From a virus, in the UHGV virus genome UHGV-1421593: a stretch of 32,886 bases of DNA; one strand, written 5' to 3'. The first letter of the stretch is position 1. Each line of letters starts with the position of its first letter. The notes below the pieces were generated by a model. It saw only the letters and a program-made list of their open reading frames with translations. It had not been told where the DNA came from and searched no databases. Positions 7,187 through 14,130 of this stretch are shown here, one piece after another. Position numbers and translations under genes: made by a program.

Positions 7187-8956
7187 TCATGGATAGTACA
7201 AATTTTTAAAGTGATTATTAATATCAACCATAGCATCAAGAATTGGTTTGAACAATGAAAAATCTATAGTCTGTCTATTTTCTCTGATAATATTGTTGGC
7301 AAACCTGTCTTTTCCAAAAGTAGTAGTGCTATCATGATTATTACTTTTATCAAAGGATTTACCGTTAATTGTCTTTGTCAGAACTTCATCTTTGAAAAAG
7401 TCTTCCATGCACGATTGTTTATCACCAGCCAATAGTGGAGTTAACAATACGTAGAGGTTATTCTCTAAATGTAAAAATTTATGTTTTCTTACGTCCTCTG
7501 ATTTTCTAGGCAGGTGAGAATATTCTTTGATTATATTATTAATAAAATCAGATGGCCCAGTGTCATTATCCAAAACAATTATTACTGGATTTTTAGGCGG
7601 TTGTCTTTCAAATTTCTTGCATTGTTCTCTATGCCTTCTAAAGAATCTTACATAGTCAGCAGCCCCACCGTAGAGGTCTAAAAAATATTCCTTTTTTGCG
7701 TTTGTTTTGAATAACGTAATATTTAAAATTCTATTCTTTGTTCTATCGTCAACTCTAACCAGAGCAGGATAACTTAAATACAAAGAATCAATTGCACATT
7801 TCAAATAAATTGGATCTGTTTTACCTTCTGTCAAAACTGTAGGCTTTATATTCCCATAAAAATACTTATAATGAAGAAAGTTACTGAATGCTGTCTCTCT
7901 TGAATTCAATTTGAGAGTAAAATTAATTCCAGTTTTCTTTAGCACATATTTTTCTGGGAGTGTATGTTTTTTAGCGTTAATGTTATTATACTTATCAAGC
8001 ATATCAATATAAACGAAGCGGCCTTCAAGTTCATTTAGAGTACCTTTTCGCGGTTTTCCACTAATATCCAAAAGGGTAAAATCCCCTTCTTTATAAAGTG
8101 CATGCGCCATAGCTCTGGTTTTTTTAATATAATCTTTATTGACATTTATTTTTTTGTTTACGGTTAAACCTGTTACTTCCTGCCTTGATGTATGCCGCAA
8201 TATTCTGGTCTTATTATTATTAATTTTAAATCCAGCTTTTTCAATTTCATTAACTAACAATGGTCCTAACTCGTTAGAATTCTCATTTATAACAATTGAG
8301 TCAGGAAACTGATTTTTGTTAGTTGAGAATGTTATATCATCTGCATATCGACTATAACTGCATCCATTAGAAAGTGCCAACTTTGACAATCTAATATCTA
8401 AAATATTACATATAAGATTGCTTATTACAGGAGAGCAAGGACTTCCTTGCGGAAGTTTTCCATCATAGCAAGCTATCTGCGCAATTATAGTTGCTATTGA
8501 TGGGTGCAAATTAAAATATTGATTCGCGATAAAATAACCACGGACCCTACCGAAATTAAATGTAGGGAAAAAATCCTCAAGATCAATATTTAAAACATTG
8601 GTTTTATTTCTATGTCTTTCTGCATTTGTTATTATTGTTTTATTTTTCTCAAATCCATGAGATAAGCTAGGGGTGATATTATTTGTTTTCCATATTTCGC
8701 TCTGACAAACATACAATAAATCTGATAAACGCCTTTGTATGTCTTTTAGTTTTTCAGTAGGCGCAAATATCTCTCTGTCACCTCCAGACTTCTTTTTTAT
8801 AATAAATCTTTCATATTGATGCTCAGGTCGTATTCTGTACAGGACATTAGTAAGAAAAGAAACTTTAATTTGAAGTAAGCGTGCAAACTCAAATTTGGTC
8901 TTGCATGACTTGAGTCTTTCTAAGTAGGAGGGAGTGAACATAATAGTAAATTCCAT
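7187..8956 (-). CDS. Retron-type reverse transcriptase with C-terminal Toprim domain (Retron-Eco2/Ec67-like architecture)
   Basis: RT motifs in order: GGDREIF...IQRRL (1/2), retron-specific NAxxH (TNAERH), LNIDLEDFFPTFN (A), QGSPCSPVISNL (B'), YSRYADDITFS (C, YADD), VTGL (retron VTG). C-terminal ~280 aa has Toprim signatures: TVLTEGKTDPIYL (Glu) and VIIVLDNDTGPSD (DxD). 589 aa. Confidence 0.88.
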   Translation of the reverse strand: MEFTIMFTPSYLERLKSCKTKFEFARLLQIKVSFLTNVLYRIRPEHQYERFIIKKKSGGDREIFAPTEKLKDIQRRLSDLLYVCQSEIWKTNNITPSLSHGFEKNKTIITNAERHRNKTNVLNIDLEDFFPTFNFGRVRGYFIANQYFNLHPSIATIIAQIACYDGKLPQGSPCSPVISNLICNILDIRLSKLALSNGCSYSRYADDITFSTNKNQFPDSIVINENSNELGPLLVNEIEKAGFKINNNKTRILRHTSRQEVTGLTVNKKINVNKDYIKKTRAMAHALYKEGDFTLLDISGKPRKGTLNELEGRFVYIDMLDKYNNINAKKHTLPEKYVLKKTGINFTLKLNSRETAFSNFLHYKYFYGNIKPTVLTEGKTDPIYLKCAIDSLYLSYPALVRVDDRTKNRILNITLFKTNAKKEYFLDLYGGAADYVRFFRRHREQCKKFERQPPKNPVIIVLDNDTGPSDFINNIIKEYSHLPRKSEDVRKHKFLHLENNLYVLLTPLLAGDKQSCMEDFFKDEVLTKTINGKSFDKSNNHDSTTTFGKDRFANNIIRENRQTIDFSLFKPILDAMVDINNHFKNLYYP

Positions 8957-9105
8957 TATTAATTATGTTATTGCACATGCAGGCACTCTTACGCATTTCA
9001 AAGTGACGCCCAAGAAGATCCGACGTCCGTCAGAGGCGAATACTGCCGACCTTTTAATCACTGATTGCGATACCACAACCAACAAATCTACCTGCATGTG
9101 CCTTG
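8957..9105 (-). ncRNA. Candidate retron msr-msd non-coding RNA locus
   Basis: 11-bp perfect inverted repeat (8973-8983 GCACATGCAGG / 9091-9101 CCTGCATGTGC) encloses 107 nt and ends 16 nt before the reverse transcriptase ATG, as retron a1/a2 repeats do. Exact msr/msd boundaries and branching G not determined. Confidence 0.3.
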
Positions 9106-9386
9106 CTAATTTATCATAGTTAACAATCAAAACAAGCACTTTTGAAAATGGCTGTATCTTATTGATTAACTAATCATGGTCAAAGCCGAACATTCCTCGT
9201 GAAGATTGTTAGAATTTGAGATCTTTACGAGCACTTAACAGACTGTCAGATTCAGTCATGGAGCAAGTTGAATGCAATGTTATCATGTATCACTTTTTCT
9301 TTTTCGTCGTTAAGATGGTTCATAAAACTTACCATTAAGTCGATTGATAACTAGTAATTACATCTGTAGGTTCTCTTGATGATTTG

Positions 9387-10127
9387 TCAGAGGGCATTTG
9401 AGCTAAATAAAGTTGATTCGACGAGTTCAATTGCTTCATCTTCGATAGTTGATTTGTCCATTGTTTTGGTCGGCTCAGAAATATCAATTTTCACAATTAC
9501 AATCTCGTCATCAAAAGATAGTTTTTCACCCCTTCTTTCTTTACGTAAAACGCTGTTCTCTTTGCTGAGTTCAGCGTTTTTCCTTTCTAACTCTGCGACT
9601 CTTTTCATCAAATCTTCCATTTTGGAATTCACAACATCTAGTCTCTGCTCAGTCGGAAATTCAATACTTTCGATGATTTCAATAAATTCACCAGTATACA
9701 TCTGAACAAACTGCTCGGTGTCTTTGATCTTCTGCATTCTTAGATCTGAACAGAAAGCTTTCCACGAGTTCTTTTTACCGTTAATTTCACAAGCAACGAT
9801 AACAGCATTATCGGTTGTATAAGCAACGATTGCAGGCAGATTATTAACTTCGGTCGTACCGATTTCGAAGCTATGCATATTTTTTACAGTCACAGCATTT
9901 TCAATCTTCTGTAACATCTTAGCTCGAACATTACGATGAATATCTATAGCTTTAACAAGAGCTTTCAGGCTGTTTTTGTTATTGGTCATTCTATTAACTT
10001 TGATAATATTTCTGTTCAGGCTTGCTTTAACTGTTCTGTCTAGATTTTCGAAGACTGCAAATTTGAAATTCAATTTATTTGCCTTTATTGATTGGTTGAG
10101 TTCTGATATTACGTTTTTTGCAAGCAT
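9387..10127 (-). CDS. Hypothetical protein with C-terminal coiled-coil
   Basis: 246 aa ORF on the cargo-island strand with coiled-coil segment MEDLMKRVAELERKNAELSKENSVLRKERR. True start may be an internal Met; overlaps the upstream small ORF by ~50 nt in another frame. Confidence 0.45.
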   Translation of the reverse strand: MLAKNVISELNQSIKANKLNFKFAVFENLDRTVKASLNRNIIKVNRMTNNKNSLKALVKAIDIHRNVRAKMLQKIENAVTVKNMHSFEIGTTEVNNLPAIVAYTTDNAVIVACEINGKKNSWKAFCSDLRMQKIKDTEQFVQMYTGEFIEIIESIEFPTEQRLDVVNSKMEDLMKRVAELERKNAELSKENSVLRKERRGEKLSFDDEIVIVKIDISEPTKTMDKSTIEDEAIELVESTLFSSNAL

Positions 10128-10233
10128 TATACATCGTTGCTTTATTCATTTGTTTAGATTCTGCAATTTGCTGAAATGTCTCACCAGAGTCTAAGCGAGA
10201 TTCAATTTCGAATTTGTTAGGTATAAATTTCAT
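10075..10233 (-). CDS. Small helix-turn-helix protein
   Basis: Start at internal Met (MKFIP). Helix-turn-helix-like segment GETFQQIAESKQMNKATMYNACKKR. May be the N-terminal part of a split gene with 9387-10127. Confidence 0.35.
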   Translation of the reverse strand: MKFIPNKFEIESRLDSGETFQQIAESKQMNKATMYNACKKRNIRTQPINKGK

Positions 10234-10245
10234 GGGGTTGCCTTT

Positions 10246-10282
10246 TTTATTGAATTGAAAAATAAGCACTCCGAAGAGTGCT
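10246..10282 (-). terminator. Candidate terminator hairpin (AGCACTC-cgaa-GAGTGCT) with U-tract on the minus strand
   Basis: 7-bp stem, 4-nt loop, followed on the minus strand by TTATTTTT, just upstream of the helix-turn-helix gene. Confidence 0.4.
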
Positions 10283-10483
10283 TTAAACTTAAGGAATTTT
10301 TAAATGAACTAAGCTAATTGCTTATATCTTATTTTATGACGGATAAAGTCAGTAGTAAACAAACGAGAGAAAATAACGAGGAAGAAGAAACTCTCTGTGT
10401 TCATACTAATATTTATATAGTTCACCGAAAGTGTAAACAAAGTCCGAAAAATAATTTAGTGAAAAGCAGGTGCATTGATGCAC

Positions 10484-10509
10484 ATCAAAACGCATCGATA
10501 ACGCATCGA
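10484..10509. promoter_or_regulatory. Tandem AACGCATCGAT x2 including 10-bp palindrome GCATCGATGC (operator-like)
   Basis: Direct repeat at 10485-10494 and 10496-10505; perfect palindrome at 10498-10507; related dyad GTGCATTGATGCAC just upstream. Confidence 0.3.
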
Positions 10510-10615
10510 TGCGACTCGGAGAAGTGCATGGACCCTAGAAAAAATCGCCCTATAAGAACAATTGGATAAAGATGAACTGGAAGGATATAGAAGCAGTACA
10601 AAACCTGGAAAACAT

Positions 10616-10757
10616 AGCGAAGCGAGCAGATTGCGCGAAGCGCGGGCGAAGCCCTAATTGATAAACATTAGCGCGAAGCGCGACAGATAACACTATCGAA
10701 CTTGATTACTAGCTACTGATTAGATGTTTCTAGATAAAGATTATTAGCGCTTCGCGC
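10616..10757. repeat. Cluster of GCGAAGC mini-hairpin motifs (4 direct, 1 inverted), including two GCGCGAAGCGCG copies and an inverted AGCGCTTCGCGCG
   Basis: GCGAAGC at 10617-10623, 10635-10641, 10645-10651 and 10673-10679; inverted GCTTCGC at 10747-10753, with another at 11083-11089. No ORF of 60 aa or more is credible here. Confidence 0.6.
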
Positions 10758-10959
10758 GTTCGCTACGCTCACAATATTATTTTTCAGATCTGGATAATAA
10801 TGATTACTGGATAACTGCATTATACTGTTCGTCTGACAATCAATAAACATAACGATCGATAATTAATTGAAATAACGTTAATGAGTTCTCCTTCGCTATC
10901 GCTACGTCGAACGGGCAAGCCCTATCTTTGATGATAGTAATGATTGACTGCTACATCAT

Positions 10960-11160
10960 CCCTCCTCGCTTCTCCCTGCTTCTACTGACCTAATGATACT
11001 CCAAGTCAATTCCCTGTTATCAAGTTCACCTGATGCTTCCTGCTTCGTTATCGACCTTATTGCTTTTGACTCTACGCTTTCAGCTTCGCAGGAAGTACGC
11101 CCTGCTGTTTGCAGATCGTTCTAAAGAACTGAGTAATCAAGTTCTCAACTATTTGATTCC
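10960..11160. repeat. Pyrimidine-rich (plus strand) non-coding segment with imperfect ~20-bp direct repeats (CCTGCTTC...GACC)
   Basis: CCTGCTTCTACTGACCTAATGAT (10972-10994) versus CCTGCTTCGTTATCGACCTTATTG (11037-11060). Strong strand-compositional skew by eye. Confidence 0.35.
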
Positions 11161-11220
11161 TTGCGCCCCAAAGATGCCTCCAGTATCTGTGGTTTACAAT
11201 CTACTCATTTGAAATTCAAT

Positions 11221-11243
11221 AAAAAAGGGAGCACTAAGCTCCC
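11221..11243 (-). terminator. Rho-independent terminator (GGGAGC-actaa-GCTCCC), A-run/T-run flanked, potentially bidirectional
   Basis: Perfect 6-bp stem. On the minus strand it is followed by TTTTTT directly after the stop of the 59-aa ORF. Confidence 0.6.
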
Positions 11244-11248
11244 TTTTG

Positions 11249-11428
11249 TCATTTCAGACCAAGCACTAATGCTTGTTCAAGTTTTTTCTCAAGCAGAGTG
11301 TTTAATCCACTTTCGAAAAATTCAATCGCTTGAACGTCTGAGTCTGTTTTTAAGCGAACAGCGGCATCGTCAACTGTTAACTCTTCGGTCTTAACATCAC
11401 CGTTTTTATAAACCACATTAGCAATCAT
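11249..11428 (-). CDS. Small protein (59 aa), unknown function; absent from the supplied ORF track
   Basis: ATG at 11428 preceded by AAAGGAGAAAGC (strong Shine-Dalgarno). Translation MIANVVYKNGDVKTEELTVDDAAVRLKTDSDVQAIEFFESGLNTLLEKKLEQALVLGLK; stop is followed at once by the terminator hairpin. Confidence 0.45.
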   Translation of the reverse strand: MIANVVYKNGDVKTEELTVDDAAVRLKTDSDVQAIEFFESGLNTLLEKKLEQALVLGLK

Positions 11429-11666
11429 GCTTTCTCCTTTGTTGCTAAAAAATAATAACCGAATGATATCACTTGTTCAATTTTTCTTTCAATCAAATAA
11501 GTATCCGATGAATAGTCGGCTCTCTAAACTAGCAGGTATGAAATAGTTCCTTAATTCTGAACTTCCTCACTTTGCTTCCTATTTAATATTGCAATTTTAA
11601 ATCTAGTGTAATTAATTTAGCTACAAACTTGCATTTATTATACATTTAAAAAATCGCCTCCATTCG

Positions 11667-12101
11667 TTAGGCATTCTCAGTTTCACTCATTTCTCCTTTA
11701 GTGCTATTCACACAGCGAAGAAACTGATCCCTCTGATACGCGGCAGTTTTGTCTGACATCTGTTTTTTGAATAACTCAAAATCCCCCTCTGTACGTTTAA
11801 AAATAATCATGCTAATCGCAGATGGTTTTTTATTAGCCGATTTGCTAGCAAGAAGTTTTTCGATGTTATCGAATCCGAAAGCCTGATTCACGATTCGTTG
11901 TGCTTCAACAGCATCGACAACTTCAACCGTATTTTCAGCTTTAACTTCTTCAACAACTGTATATTCCTCGATGTTAGCTTTAACACGACGAACAACAGAA
12001 CGAGGAACATCGTATTTTTCAGCAAGCTTACTCTCTGACATATCAGTACCAGCGTTTAATTCAGAAGCAATTCGGTTTTCAACAGTCAGTTCAGTTTTCA
12101 T
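11667..12101 (-). CDS. Helix-turn-helix DNA-binding protein (putative regulator)
   Basis: Start at Met (MKTELTV) with AGGAG Shine-Dalgarno 7 nt upstream. Helix-turn-helix segment SESKLAEKYDVPRSVVRRV. Divergent from the large terminase gene. Confidence 0.5.
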   Translation of the reverse strand: MKTELTVENRIASELNAGTDMSESKLAEKYDVPRSVVRRVKANIEEYTVVEEVKAENTVEVVDAVEAQRIVNQAFGFDNIEKLLASKSANKKPSAISMIIFKRTEGDFELFKKQMSDKTAAYQRDQFLRCVNSTKGEMSETENA

Positions 12102-12246
12102 TGTCGTTCTCCTGTGTTTTGTTGGAACAGACTTTAACAGGCGGATATCCAGGTGCAAGAACTCTTAGAAATAATTTTATGGAGGTTTTCATAAATACAG
12201 ACAGAGAAATGAAATCCATTTTGGGTTCATCCACTTAGGGCTGATT

Positions 12247-14130
12247 ATGAAAAACTCAAATAAACTGAAAAGTATCTTACAGAATGCAAAGCGCTTTTTA
12301 ATGCCACCTCCTGACTACACTCCGTCCGAGTGGGTCGAACAGTACCTGAAATTCCCTGATGGTCCTTATACAGGGCAGCCGATGAAACTGTTTGAGTTTC
12401 AGAAAGGCATGATTGACGTCATTAAAGAACGTAAGAAGAAAATCGTCTTCGAGACTTCTGCCCAGATTGGCAAGACAACCATCTTGAACGGAATTCTGTT
12501 CTATAAGTCTGCTACTGATCCCGGTAACGCTGGTGTCTTGCAGTCAACCGGTAAAGAGACGACTCAATGGCTATCAGGCAAGATTCGCCCAATGATTGAC
12601 GAATCGGAAGAAATGCAACGAATCGTCACCGACAAGAACGACAGAAACGCAGTGAATAACACCAGTCAAATTCAGCTACGTGCTGGAGGCTTTTGGTATT
12701 TCATGTCGCTCAATAGCCCTTCTCACTTACGCGGTAAAACTCTTCCGCTGATGTTGCTTGATGAAGTTGACGCAGTTGAAACAGACACAGAAGAAGGCAA
12801 CCCGATTATCATCGCGGAACAACGTGCTACGACGTTCGGTGAAGACGCTCGTGTTTTCATTAGCTCGACGCCTACAAGTAAATACGGTGCTATCCACACG
12901 CAGTATGAAGCATCCGACAAGCGCAAGTATCATGTTCCCTGTCCTACATGTGGTCATAAGCACGAACTGACGTGGGAGAATATCAAATTCGACTGGGTAA
13001 AAATCGATGGTAAATCATTACCTGATCCTAACTCTGCCAGAATTGAATGTCCTGAATGTCATCACGCTTTCTCTGAAGGCGACCGAGCACGAGCAATTAA
13101 ACAAGGTGAATGGATTATTCATCAACCTGAAAGTCGAATTGCTGGATTCCACGTAAGTCGTTTATACAGCCCAATGAGTTCTATCAAATCAGTTGTTGAA
13201 GACTATAAGCAAGCATGGCAAACGTTCAGCTTGTCAACGTTTTATAACACTGTTCTTGGTCTACCGTTTGATGATTTAAACGAAGACATTGAGGTTAGTA
13301 AATTAGAAACACTCAAGACGAATATCGGCATCAGCAATATACCAGAAGACACGTTGTTTTTAACCGCTGGGGTTGACCAACAGCAAGACCGTTTAGAAGT
13401 AACCTTGATGGGTCACAACGAACGAACCGTTTATATTCTTGCACATCGTAGCTTTATGACAATGAACGCTGAGGTTATCGATTCCCCTGCTTATAAAGAA
13501 CTTCTTGCATACGTTAAAGCACCGTTCAGAACAGCTTTGGGAAGAAAGGTTCCTTTAGCGTGGGTGAACGTCGATAGCTCAAACGGTCGAGCAACTAAAA
13601 CAATCTATCGTTTCTGCTCTCAGTGGACAAACCTGAAAGCAATTAAAGGTGCCAGCTCTGTTGATGCCCCTTATGTTCCAACGAAAATCACGAAAACCGG
13701 TGGTTATGAACTTTATATGATTGGTGTAAACCAAGGAAAAAACTTAGTTCGTGAACTGCTAAACAGAAGCGTGAAATCTGGAAATACACCAGTCAGAGTC
13801 GAAATCTCTGATGATGTTCCAGATGATTACTGCGAACAGCTTATGTCCGAAGAATTAAAACGCTCTGGTAATACTGTTAGATGGGTTATTAAACAAGGCG
13901 GTGTTCGTAACGAAGGTCTTGACTGCTTTAACTACGGTTATTGCGCGCGTCTGCAAGTTCTAGAGAAAATCAAATTTCACGAGTGGAGGAAACTCGCTGC
14001 TAAATCTGATATTGAAATGCCAGAAGAACAAAACGAAACAAATTCTCCTGTTATTCAAACTCATGAACCTCGTCGAAACATTATCAAACGAAACAGACCA
14101 GTTAATAAGCCTCGTGGTTTCGGATTATAA
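12247..14130 (+). CDS. Terminase large subunit, lambda GpA family
   Basis: Walker A (SAQIGKTT), Walker B-like LMLLDEVD, zinc-finger CPTCGH...CPECHH, nuclease-domain motifs LTAGVDQQQDRLEV and NEGLDCFNYGYCA colinear with lambda gpA. 627 aa. Confidence 0.92.
   Translation: MKNSNKLKSILQNAKRFLMPPPDYTPSEWVEQYLKFPDGPYTGQPMKLFEFQKGMIDVIKERKKKIVFETSAQIGKTTILNGILFYKSATDPGNAGVLQSTGKETTQWLSGKIRPMIDESEEMQRIVTDKNDRNAVNNTSQIQLRAGGFWYFMSLNSPSHLRGKTLPLMLLDEVDAVETDTEEGNPIIIAEQRATTFGEDARVFISSTPTSKYGAIHTQYEASDKRKYHVPCPTCGHKHELTWENIKFDWVKIDGKSLPDPNSARIECPECHHAFSEGDRARAIKQGEWIIHQPESRIAGFHVSRLYSPMSSIKSVVEDYKQAWQTFSLSTFYNTVLGLPFDDLNEDIEVSKLETLKTNIGISNIPEDTLFLTAGVDQQQDRLEVTLMGHNERTVYILAHRSFMTMNAEVIDSPAYKELLAYVKAPFRTALGRKVPLAWVNVDSSNGRATKTIYRFCSQWTNLKAIKGASSVDAPYVPTKITKTGGYELYMIGVNQGKNLVRELLNRSVKSGNTPVRVEISDDVPDDYCEQLMSEELKRSGNTVRWVIKQGGVRNEGLDCFNYGYCARLQVLEKIKFHEWRKLAAKSDIEMPEEQNETNSPVIQTHEPRRNIIKRNRPVNKPRGFGL

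What the first reader, a model, noticed from the sequence alone, without database searches (positions are those of the whole stretch)
7187..8956. Retron-type reverse transcriptase fused to a Toprim domain, carried inside a phage genome
The 589-aa minus-strand ORF has the full RT motif set plus the two retron-specific signatures (NAxxH as TNAERH, and VTG as VTGL). Its ~280-aa C-terminal extension carries Toprim hallmarks: a conserved Glu (TVLTEGKTD) and DxD (VIIVLDNDTGP). That is the RT-Toprim architecture described for Retron-Eco2 (Ec67). It sits in an opposite-strand cargo island between the packaging genes and looks AT-richer than its neighbours by eye, consistent with a horizontally acquired defence or superinfection-exclusion module.
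Basis: partly seen in the sequence, partly recalled or inferred. Interest (0 to 1): 0.85.

Follow-up and report, generated by a model that had tools for sequence, protein, structure and literature searches.

The report
Ec67-type retron on E. coli prophage
This is an intact retron of the well-studied Ec67/Eco2 kind (a reverse transcriptase fused to a Toprim RNase, plus its small RNA gene), carried as cargo in an E. coli prophage; RefSeq already labels the gene this way, so the finding is correct but ordinary.

Summary

It lies at 8972-9102 (minus strand) and is supported by strong covariation and by a covariance model built without the window (E about 6e-29, the only hit).

The window is an E. 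coli/Citrobacter prophage, identical to E. coli MS 115-1, where RefSeq already names the gene. The separation of terS from terL is a backbone feature. Only the slot at about 7000-9386 is cargo: it is empty or holds other genes in related phages. The same roughly 2-kb cassette also occurs in P2-like prophages and in a chromosomal island.

By homology it should work like Eco2: msDNA cages the Toprim, a phage nuclease degrades the msDNA, and tRNA cleavage follows. This is known biology and of low interest.

The parts
7187..8941 (-). RT-Toprim fusion gene (584 aa from Met6; the maximal ORF extends to 8956, 589 aa)
8159..8800 (-). Reverse transcriptase core (residues 53-266). Contains NAxxH (8612-8626), YADD (8336-8347) and VTG (8168-8176)
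   Evidence: Pfam RVT_1 E=4e-23; motif residues invariant in the family alignment; coordinates verified
7202..7939 (-). Toprim (OLD-like) nuclease domain, residues about 340-585. Contains EGKTD (7814-7828), DND (7562-7570), E518 (7403-7405) and K549 (7310-7312)
8972..9102 (-). msr-msd non-coding RNA gene (131 nt), not annotated in RefSeq
   Evidence: Covariance model built from 11 relatives without the window gives a single hit, 107.1 bits, E=5.7e-29, full length; fold -53.4 kcal/mol, z=-4.8; aligns to the Ec67-type ncRNA
9089..9101 (-). a1 arm of the terminal inverted repeat (GCACAUGCAGGUA)
   Evidence: 11-nt perfect inverted repeat, 13 bp including one G-U pair; 11 of 13 pairs show compensatory changes in 12 sequences, 12 of 13 in 74 sequences
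8973..8985 (-). a2 arm of the terminal inverted repeat (UGCCUGCAUGUGC)
   Evidence: As for a1
9088..9088 (-). Predicted branching G (priming 2'-OH), equivalent to Eco2 G15
   Evidence: Invariant column 15 of alignment A3, directly 3' of a1; Eco2 G15 from PMC12916289. The position is inferred by alignment
9061..9082 (-). Conserved msr hairpin
   Evidence: 8 pairs, 98% paired in 12 sequences; all 8 pairs covary in 74 sequences
8987..9050 (-). msd template region; predicted msDNA of about 64 nt (inferred)
   Evidence: Alignment to Eco2, where the template runs from A118 to G52 and terminates at G52:dC67; the msDNA is weakly self-structured, as in all 12 relatives
9103..9164 (-). Upstream region conserved with other retron copies; presumed promoter (inferred, not resolved)
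   Evidence: Homology with the P2-borne and chromosomal copies extends to 9120-9164; contains TTGTTT...TATGATAAAT about 7-12 nt before the ncRNA 5' end; the consensus scan gave no strong hit here
7000..9386 (.). Variable cargo slot of the prophage, occupied here by the retron
   Evidence: Bounded by the conserved Zn-ribbon ORF (6787-6999, minus strand) and the coiled-coil ORF (9387-10127, minus strand). The slot is empty in L091, L096 and E. coli PSS-15, and holds a different 3-gene cassette in L087, L089 and L090. GC 0.322

Best explanation
This is an intact type I-C (Ec67/Eco2-family) retron carried as accessory cargo in a temperate E. coli/Citrobacter phage. It is a self-contained unit of about 2 kb: a promoter region, the msr-msd RNA gene (9102 to 8972) and one gene for an RT-Toprim fusion protein (8941 to 7187).

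Shown here: both domains are complete with all catalytic residues; the ncRNA has the retron a1/a2 stem, the conserved msr hairpin and a G in the branching position; and the unit sits in a swap-in slot of the prophage.

Inferred by homology to Eco2 (about 50% identity, same fold): the RT primes on the 2'-OH of the G at 9088 and copies the msd into an msDNA of about 64 nt. RT-Toprim and msDNA assemble into a trimer in which the msDNA cages the Toprim active sites. A nuclease from a superinfecting phage (DenB of T-even phages or A1 of T5-like phages) degrades the msDNA. The freed Toprim then nicks tRNA acceptor stems and other RNAs, which stops translation and aborts the infection. The lysogen, and with it the prophage, is protected.
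Against: Nothing functional was tested: msDNA production, trimer formation, the trigger and the RNA targets are all extrapolated from a homologue with about 50% identity. The msd sequence differs from Eco2's, so the msDNA length (about 64 nt) and the details of caging are predictions. The promoter is not resolved. In one host (MS 115-1) the prophage has an IS3 in terL, so at least that copy sits in a defective prophage. Subtype I-C1 versus I-C3 was not resolved, and the published subtype classification is itself questioned.
Confidence: 0.88

Rival explanations
1. It is a functional type I-C retron, but its trigger and/or substrates differ from Eco2's. Its divergent msDNA could sense another phage factor (a methylase, an SSB or a different nuclease), or its Toprim could prefer other RNAs or DNA.
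For: The msd/msDNA region is poorly conserved between this retron and the Ec67-type locus, while msr and a1/a2 are conserved. Eco2 also defends against phage families that lack DenB and A1, so other triggers exist. Protein identity to Eco2 is only about 50%.
Against: All metal-binding and catalytic residues and the overall fold are the same. The msDNA is C-containing single-stranded DNA, as in Eco2, so DenB-type dC-specific endonucleases should cut it.
Confidence: 0.2
2. It is silent or decayed cargo: a retron remnant that no longer makes msDNA or defends.
For: It sits in a rare prophage that is IS-disrupted in MS 115-1. No strong consensus promoter was found.
Against: The ORF is uninterrupted and every catalytic residue is intact. 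The ncRNA pairs perfectly and scores 107 bits. The identical protein occurs on more than 138 contigs. The window's own terL is intact.
Confidence: 0.04
3. The retron mainly serves the phage itself, for example in competition with co-infecting phages during lytic growth, in packaging or life-cycle control (given its place beside terS), or as counter-defence, and does not act as a lysogen defence.
For: It lies between the packaging genes. Relatives in P2-like phages also sit next to the portal and terminase genes. It is transcribed opposite to the late genes.
Against: The slot is empty in related phages that keep the same packaging genes, so the retron is dispensable for the phage. The same cassette sits in a non-phage chromosomal island next to another defence system. 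Cloned Eco2 defends without any prophage.
Confidence: 0.05
4. It is not a retron but another reverse-transcriptase class (DRT/UG, Abi or group II intron maturase) with an unrelated C-terminal domain.
For: Weak secondary hits to group II intron RT and Drt2 models.
Against: Those hits are far below their cut-offs (48 against 300 bits; 40 against 390 bits), while the Ec67 model is far above its own. The retron-specific NAxxH and VTG motifs and the a1/a2 ncRNA are present. The top structural neighbours are retron RTs.
Confidence: 0.01

Closest known systems
Retron-Eco2 (Ec67), type I-C1, E. coli (PDB 9lm3, 9i2f, 9i2g, 9s1f)
   Different: About half the residues differ. The msd/msDNA sequence is different and predicted to be about 64 nt against 67 nt. 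It is carried in a lambda-type-terminase, HK97-capsid, serine-integrase prophage, whereas Eco2 relatives are in P2/186-like prophages. It has not been characterised experimentally.
Uncharacterised type I-C retrons of Enterobacterales: P2-like prophage copies (Serratia L084, viral contig L098) and the E. coli JJ1886/ST131-type chromosomal copy (L100)
   Same: 72-77% nucleotide identity over exactly the cassette (window about 7167-9164). The msr and a1/a2 are near-identical. All are labelled 'retron Ec67 family' by RefSeq.
   Different: Different genomic homes: next to the P2 portal and terminase genes, or next to an ABC-three-component system near dhaR. The msd differs in the central part. The JJ1886 type is common (527 of 5426 complete genomes), whereas the window's allele is in 2.
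Retron types XI (RT-protease) and XII (RT-TIR)
   Same: The RT domain is closely related (PADLOC 332-337 bits over residues about 12-329; NCBIfam Retron_TIR_antiphage 284 bits). All are single-protein fusion retrons.
   Different: The C-terminal effector is Toprim, not TIR or protease. The TIR model scores below its cut-off of 600.
OLD-family Toprim nucleases, including Gabija GajA, PARIS AriB and the Retron-Eco8 OLD effector
   Different: There is no ATPase domain. It is fused to an RT. There is no sequence-level similarity (no Pfam Toprim hit; no PDB sequence hit other than Ec67). Mestre et al. place the I-C Toprim as a separate lineage.

Membership tests
Retron type I-C (Ec67/Eco2 family, RT-Toprim) | Retron-clade RT with YADD plus the retron-specific NAxxH and VTG motifs | tested here: met
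   NAERH 111-115, YADD 204-207 and VTG 261-263 are present and conserved in the family: N111, A112, H115, Y204-D207 and G263 are invariant and T262 is at least 90% conserved. Best structural neighbours after Eco2 are retron RTs Ec86, Eco7 and Eco8.
Retron type I-C (Ec67/Eco2 family, RT-Toprim) | Toprim domain fused to the RT C-terminus, with motif IV EGxxD and motif V DxD (Mestre et al. 2020) | tested here: met
Retron type I-C (Ec67/Eco2 family, RT-Toprim) | Curated family score threshold (NCBIfam NF038237 retron_Ec67_fus) | tested here: met
   708.7 bits against a cut-off of 450, covering profile positions 1-572 of 572. PADLOC RT-Toprim_I-C 716 bits, the same top models as Ec67-type P0016.
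Retron type I-C (Ec67/Eco2 family, RT-Toprim) | msr-msd ncRNA immediately upstream on the same strand, closed by the a1/a2 inverted repeats, with a G directly after a1 | tested here: met
   Located at 8972-9102 on the minus strand. CM without the window gives E=5.7e-29. Covariation is shown. G at 9088 lies in the invariant column that aligns with Eco2 G15.
Retron type I-C (Ec67/Eco2 family, RT-Toprim) | Single protein-coding gene; no separate effector gene | tested here: met
   The unit shared among three unrelated contexts ends at the RT stop codon and about 20-60 nt upstream of a1. The flanking ORFs are conserved phage backbone genes that are present without the retron.
Retron type I-C (Ec67/Eco2 family, RT-Toprim) | Subtype assignment (I-C1, I-C2 or I-C3) | tested here: inconclusive
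   DxD (not DxE) excludes I-C2. The ncRNA and protein align throughout with I-C1 Eco2, but no phylogeny was made, and the published subtype boundaries are questioned.
Retron type I-C (Ec67/Eco2 family, RT-Toprim) | Production of branched msDNA (2'-5' linkage) | not testable with these tools
   Needs RNA/DNA extraction from a lysogen or a clone.
Retron type I-C (Ec67/Eco2 family, RT-Toprim) | Anti-phage defence that depends on both the RT and the Toprim active sites | not testable with these tools
   Shown for Eco2 only.
Temperate phage / prophage | Integrase plus packaging, head and tail genes, bounded by host genes | tested here: met
   Serine integrase, lysozyme, terS, terL, portal, protease-capsid fusion, tail fibre, J-like protein and tape measure. 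Lies between ybiT and ldtB in E. coli MS 115-1. Relatives are in IMG/VR. No replication genes were recognised, and inducibility is untested.

The most novel reading that the evidence does not exclude
The retron itself is conventional. The most novel reading still open concerns its home. The junction between the Zn-ribbon gene and the coiled-coil gene, inside the unusually split terS...terL region of this rare, low-GC E. coli/Citrobacter prophage lineage, may be a dedicated defence-cargo hot spot. In that case the unannotated three-gene cassette that replaces the retron in relatives (L087, L089, L090), and the 242-aa RxxxxH protein in L091, would be uncharacterised anti-phage systems. A second possibility is that this retron's divergent msDNA responds to a trigger other than DenB or A1.
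Probability: 0.2. Interest if true: 0.4.

Novelty: already known. Interest (0 to 1): 0.15.

Why it matters
It matters little beyond good annotation. It is one more example of a minimal 2-kb type I-C retron cassette moving between unrelated prophage backbones and chromosomal islands, and it gives exact coordinates for an ncRNA that genome annotation leaves out. Two small practical by-products follow. First, type I-C msr/msd RNAs have no Rfam family, yet a simple covariance model finds them upstream of 88 of 90 RT-Toprim genes across phyla. Second, the variable slot in this prophage lineage could be mined for new defence genes.

Tried and rejected
- **Rfam.** Searches at the gathering threshold and at a permissive E-value found no retron RNA family, only chance snoRNA-like hits.
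- **Phage records.** Megablast of the island against phage records found nothing. tblastn of the RT against phages found one full-length but unannotated match.
- **DCP80 as an 'empty site' reference.** I tried Escherichia phage DCP80 (closest TerL, 52%). Its first 12 kb look unrelated to its Straboviridae classification and carry no annotated terS, so I dropped it.
- **Promoter and terminator scan.** It gave no convincing promoter directly upstream of msr and no terminator after the RT. Its one minus-strand 'terminator' is the msd hairpin.
- **msDNA hairpin.** I expected a stable msDNA hairpin. It is absent (z=+0.9), but it is equally absent in Ec67-type and all other relatives, so this is not a peculiarity.
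- **Full-length fold searches.** RT hits swamped the lists and did not show other Toprim proteins. This was solved by modelling the C-terminal region alone.
- **Literature.** A search for the RefSeq accession found nothing, and no supplements of the retron census are held.
- **Inverted gene block.** I looked for inverted repeats flanking the 2544-4285 block that is inverted in L089. None was convincing.

Full report
**1. The observation**

The ORF listing confirms a 589-aa ORF on the minus strand at 7187-8956.
- NAERH: residues 111-115
- YADD: 204-207
- VTG: 261-263
- EGKTD: 377-381
- DND: 463-465

The gene is AT-richer than its surroundings: GC is 0.315 against 0.384 for the window, and sliding windows over it read 0.30-0.32.

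The first ATG is not conserved in the close relative L098, while the second (Met6, nt 8941) is. Database gene calls and RefSeq use the 584-aa form. The real CDS is therefore most likely 7187-8941.

**2. What the protein is**

Profile and sequence searches agree:
- Pfam sees only RVT_1 (residues 53-266, E=4e-23) and no Toprim model.
- PADLOC gives RT-Toprim_I-C at 716 bits over residues 10-585.
- NCBIfam gives retron_Ec67_fus at 708.7 bits against a curated cut-off of 450, covering the whole 572-position profile.
- Group II intron RT, Drt2, RT-TIR and St85 models all fall below their cut-offs.
- Against PDB sequences, the protein aligns over residues 9-585 with the solved Retron Ec67 (Eco2) chains 9lm3 and 9i2f (E=5.5e-189).

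In an alignment of 40 family members (mean column identity 53%), these columns are invariant: N111/A112/H115, Y204-D207, G263, E377-G-K-T-D381, D463-N-D465, E518 and K549.

Read off the alignment, they correspond to Eco2 YADD 199-202, E374, D378, D460, D462 and E515. Alanine substitutions of those Toprim residues abolish Eco2 defence or RNase activity (PMC12405507; PMC12916289).

Eco2 S513 aligns to a Cys here, but the family consensus has the Ser one position earlier, as the window does. That column is simply variable.

Structure prediction supports the same assignment:
- RT hits swamp those lists, so I modelled residues 335-589 alone (pLDDT 91.7).

**3. The missing part: the ncRNA**

Immediately upstream of the RT on the minus strand there is an 11-nt perfect inverted repeat (9091-9101 and 8973-8983). 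Including one G-U pair it extends to 13 bp. The 139-nt stretch folds at -53.4 kcal/mol (z=-4.8). Rfam has no matching family.

I located the equivalent RNA upstream of 11 other RT-Toprim genes whose RTs are 45-77% identical to the window's, including an Ec67-type E. coli locus. On these 12 sequences:
- RNAalifold recovers the a1/a2 stem, a conserved msr hairpin and a short long-range helix.
- 99% of cells are paired, against 17-47% when the partners are slid.
- 13 pairs show changes on both sides, against 4.1 in shuffles (0 of 500 shuffles as high).
- 11 of the 13 a1/a2 pairs covary and none is broken.

One caveat applies. I chose a2 positions by complementarity, but they fall in one alignment register next to invariant flanking bases.

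As an independent test I built a covariance model from the 11 relatives only. It finds exactly one hit in the 32.9-kb window, at 8972-9102 on the minus strand, full length, 107 bits, E=5.7e-29.

The same model finds a full-length RNA just upstream of the RT in 88 of 90 further RT-Toprim loci, from Proteobacteria, Acidobacteriota, Firmicutes and viral contigs. In that model-fitted alignment 22 of 24 pairs covary.

By alignment to Eco2, where the branching nucleotide is G15 and termination is at G52:dC67:
- the branching G is nt 9088;
- the template runs from 8987 to 9050;
- the predicted msDNA is about 64 nt (inference).

Its weak self-structure (z=+0.9) is shared by all relatives, including Ec67-type. 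This fits the cryo-EM finding that Eco2 msDNA wraps the protein and does not form a free hairpin.

**4. Context**

The window is a prophage. It carries a large serine integrase (114-1619), lysozyme, terS (6132-6680), terL (12247-14130), portal, an HK97 protease-capsid fusion, tail fibres, a J-like protein and a tape measure.

Its proteins occur verbatim in E. coli, Citrobacter and Enterobacter genomes. Window 6000-12300 is 100% identical to the E. coli MS 115-1 chromosome. There the element lies between ybiT and ldtB, and the RT is annotated as 'retron Ec67 family RNA-directed DNA polymerase/endonuclease', WP_000494974.1. In that strain terL is split by an IS3, whereas it is intact in the window.

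The backbone is rare: 7 of 5426 complete E. coli genomes have it, and 2 of those carry the retron.

Comparison with related phages (TerL 74-88% identical) corrects the 'cargo island' picture:
- In all of them terS and terL are 4-6 kb apart.
- In the closer relatives (L087, L089, L090), homologues of the minus-strand genes (Zn-ribbon ORF 6787-6999, coiled-coil ORF 9387-10127, and the ORFs at 10075-10269, 11249-11428 and 11667-12158) are recognisable.
- The split is therefore backbone, not an insertion.

Only the junction between the Zn-ribbon ORF and the coiled-coil ORF varies:
- It is essentially empty in L091, L096 and E. coli PSS-15, where the two genes overlap.
- It holds an unrelated three-gene plus-strand cassette in L087, L089 and L090.
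- It holds the retron here.

**5. The mobile unit**

Nucleotide homology with retron copies elsewhere covers only window about 7167/7190 to 9120-9164. That runs from the RT stop codon to a few tens of nt upstream of a1. Those copies are:
- in P2-like prophages, between the replication gene gpA and the portal and terminase genes (Serratia L084, viral contig L098, Ec67-type E. coli L083);
- in a chromosomal island next to an 'ABC-three component system' near dhaR in E. coli JJ1886. This variant is 73% identical and is present in 527 of 5426 complete genomes.

The cassette is thus a promoter region plus ncRNA plus one gene, which matches the definition of type I-C loci.

At least 209 stretches in IMG/VR encode relatives, about 50 of them full length among the 80 loci kept. 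Published work states that type I-C retrons are about 11% of retrons and are often on prophages. It also states that Ec107 is the only studied E. coli retron not linked to a prophage.

**6. Mechanism**

Established here:
- an intact RT active site;
- an intact two-metal Toprim site;
- a covarying msr/msd RNA with a G in the branching position;
- a self-contained cassette in a dispensable prophage slot.

Inferred from Eco2:
- msDNA synthesis is primed at the branching G.
- A 3:3 RT-Toprim:msDNA complex forms in which the msDNA cages the Toprim.
- Phage nucleases (DenB, A1) cleave the msDNA and activate the complex.
- The Toprim nicks tRNA acceptor stems and cuts other RNAs less specifically.
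- Translation shuts down.

For a prophage-borne copy the beneficiary is the lysogen. I put about 0.88 on 'functional Eco2-like retron'. Within that, about 0.2 goes to the trigger or substrates differing from Eco2, because the msd is divergent and Eco2 itself responds to unidentified triggers.

**7. Verdict**

The finding is correct and was well read from raw sequence, but it is known biology. The family has curated HMMs, four solved structures and a published mechanism, and this exact protein carries the family name in RefSeq.

No paper I could search mentions this allele, so it has not been characterised experimentally. Nothing about it departs from the family.

I rate it 'already known' with interest 0.15. 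The only leads with some novelty are peripheral: the variable slot and its unannotated alternative cargo, and the absence of an Rfam family for type I-C retron RNAs.

Noticed in passing
window 4626-5821 (+): A second defence-type gene pair lies between the lysozyme gene and terS: a 99-aa YuaX-family ORF, followed by a 298-aa protein with a CAP12/Pycsar-type TIR domain that matches PADLOC candidate system PDC-S35 (237 bits). It is 100% identical in relative L087, which lacks the retron, and is split by IS2 in E. coli PSS-15.
   Followed up: partly
L087:4730-6528, L089:4354-6152 (also L090); L091:5290-6018 (-): In related phages the retron's slot holds a three-gene plus-strand cassette (158, 168 and 240 aa; the 240-aa protein has an RNYFQH, HEPN-like Rx4H motif). 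L091 has a 242-aa protein with LRNIMVH next to terS. None has any Pfam or PADLOC hit, so they are possible uncharacterised defence genes.
   Followed up: partly
window 2544-4285: The block holding the DUF2163 tail gene, the distal tail gene and the lysozyme gene is inverted in relatives L089 and L090 compared with the window and L087. In the window the two tail genes are on the opposite strand to the rest of the tail module. No convincing flanking inverted repeats were found. A large serine recombinase is encoded nearby at 114-1619.
   Followed up: partly
whole window; L099 (E. coli MS 115-1, 3135117-3169011): The prophage has GC 0.38 in a host of roughly 0.51 (the host figure is from general knowledge, not measured here). 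It is only about 34 kb and lies between ybiT and ldtB. It has no recognisable replication or classical repressor genes; the only regulator-like gene is a GntR-like HTH ORF at 11667-12158 (minus strand). It is present in only 7 of 5426 complete E. coli genomes. In MS 115-1 its terL is interrupted by an IS3.
   Followed up: partly
window 6132-14130: terS and terL are separated by 5.5 kb of minus-strand genes in every member of this phage group examined. This is unusual for lambda-type (Nu1/gpA-like) terminases, whose genes are normally adjacent (that last point is from general knowledge).
   Followed up: partly
window 28100-28576 (+): An endonuclease VII / HNH-type gene sits inside the tail module (phrog_423, E=4e-36). 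It is conserved in the PSS-15 relative.
   Followed up: no
window 8972-9102 (-) and 88 other loci (alignment A5): Type I-C retron msr/msd RNAs have no Rfam family and are not annotated by PGAP. Yet a small covariance model (R1) detects them upstream of 88 of 90 RT-Toprim genes across several phyla.
   Followed up: yes
L100 (E. coli JJ1886, NC_022648.1 1349810-1355341): The common 73%-identical retron variant (527 of 5426 complete E. coli genomes) lies directly beside an annotated 'ABC-three component system' and a 628-aa hypothetical gene near dhaR. This looks like a chromosomal defence island and not a prophage.
   Followed up: no
L082 (Escherichia phage DCP80, PQ671644.1 1-12608): This 141-kb record is classified as Straboviridae/Tevenvirinae. 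It begins with a lambda-type terminase, portal and HK97 capsid module that is 52-76% similar to the window's prophage, which suggests a chimeric assembly or a mislabelled record.
   Followed up: no
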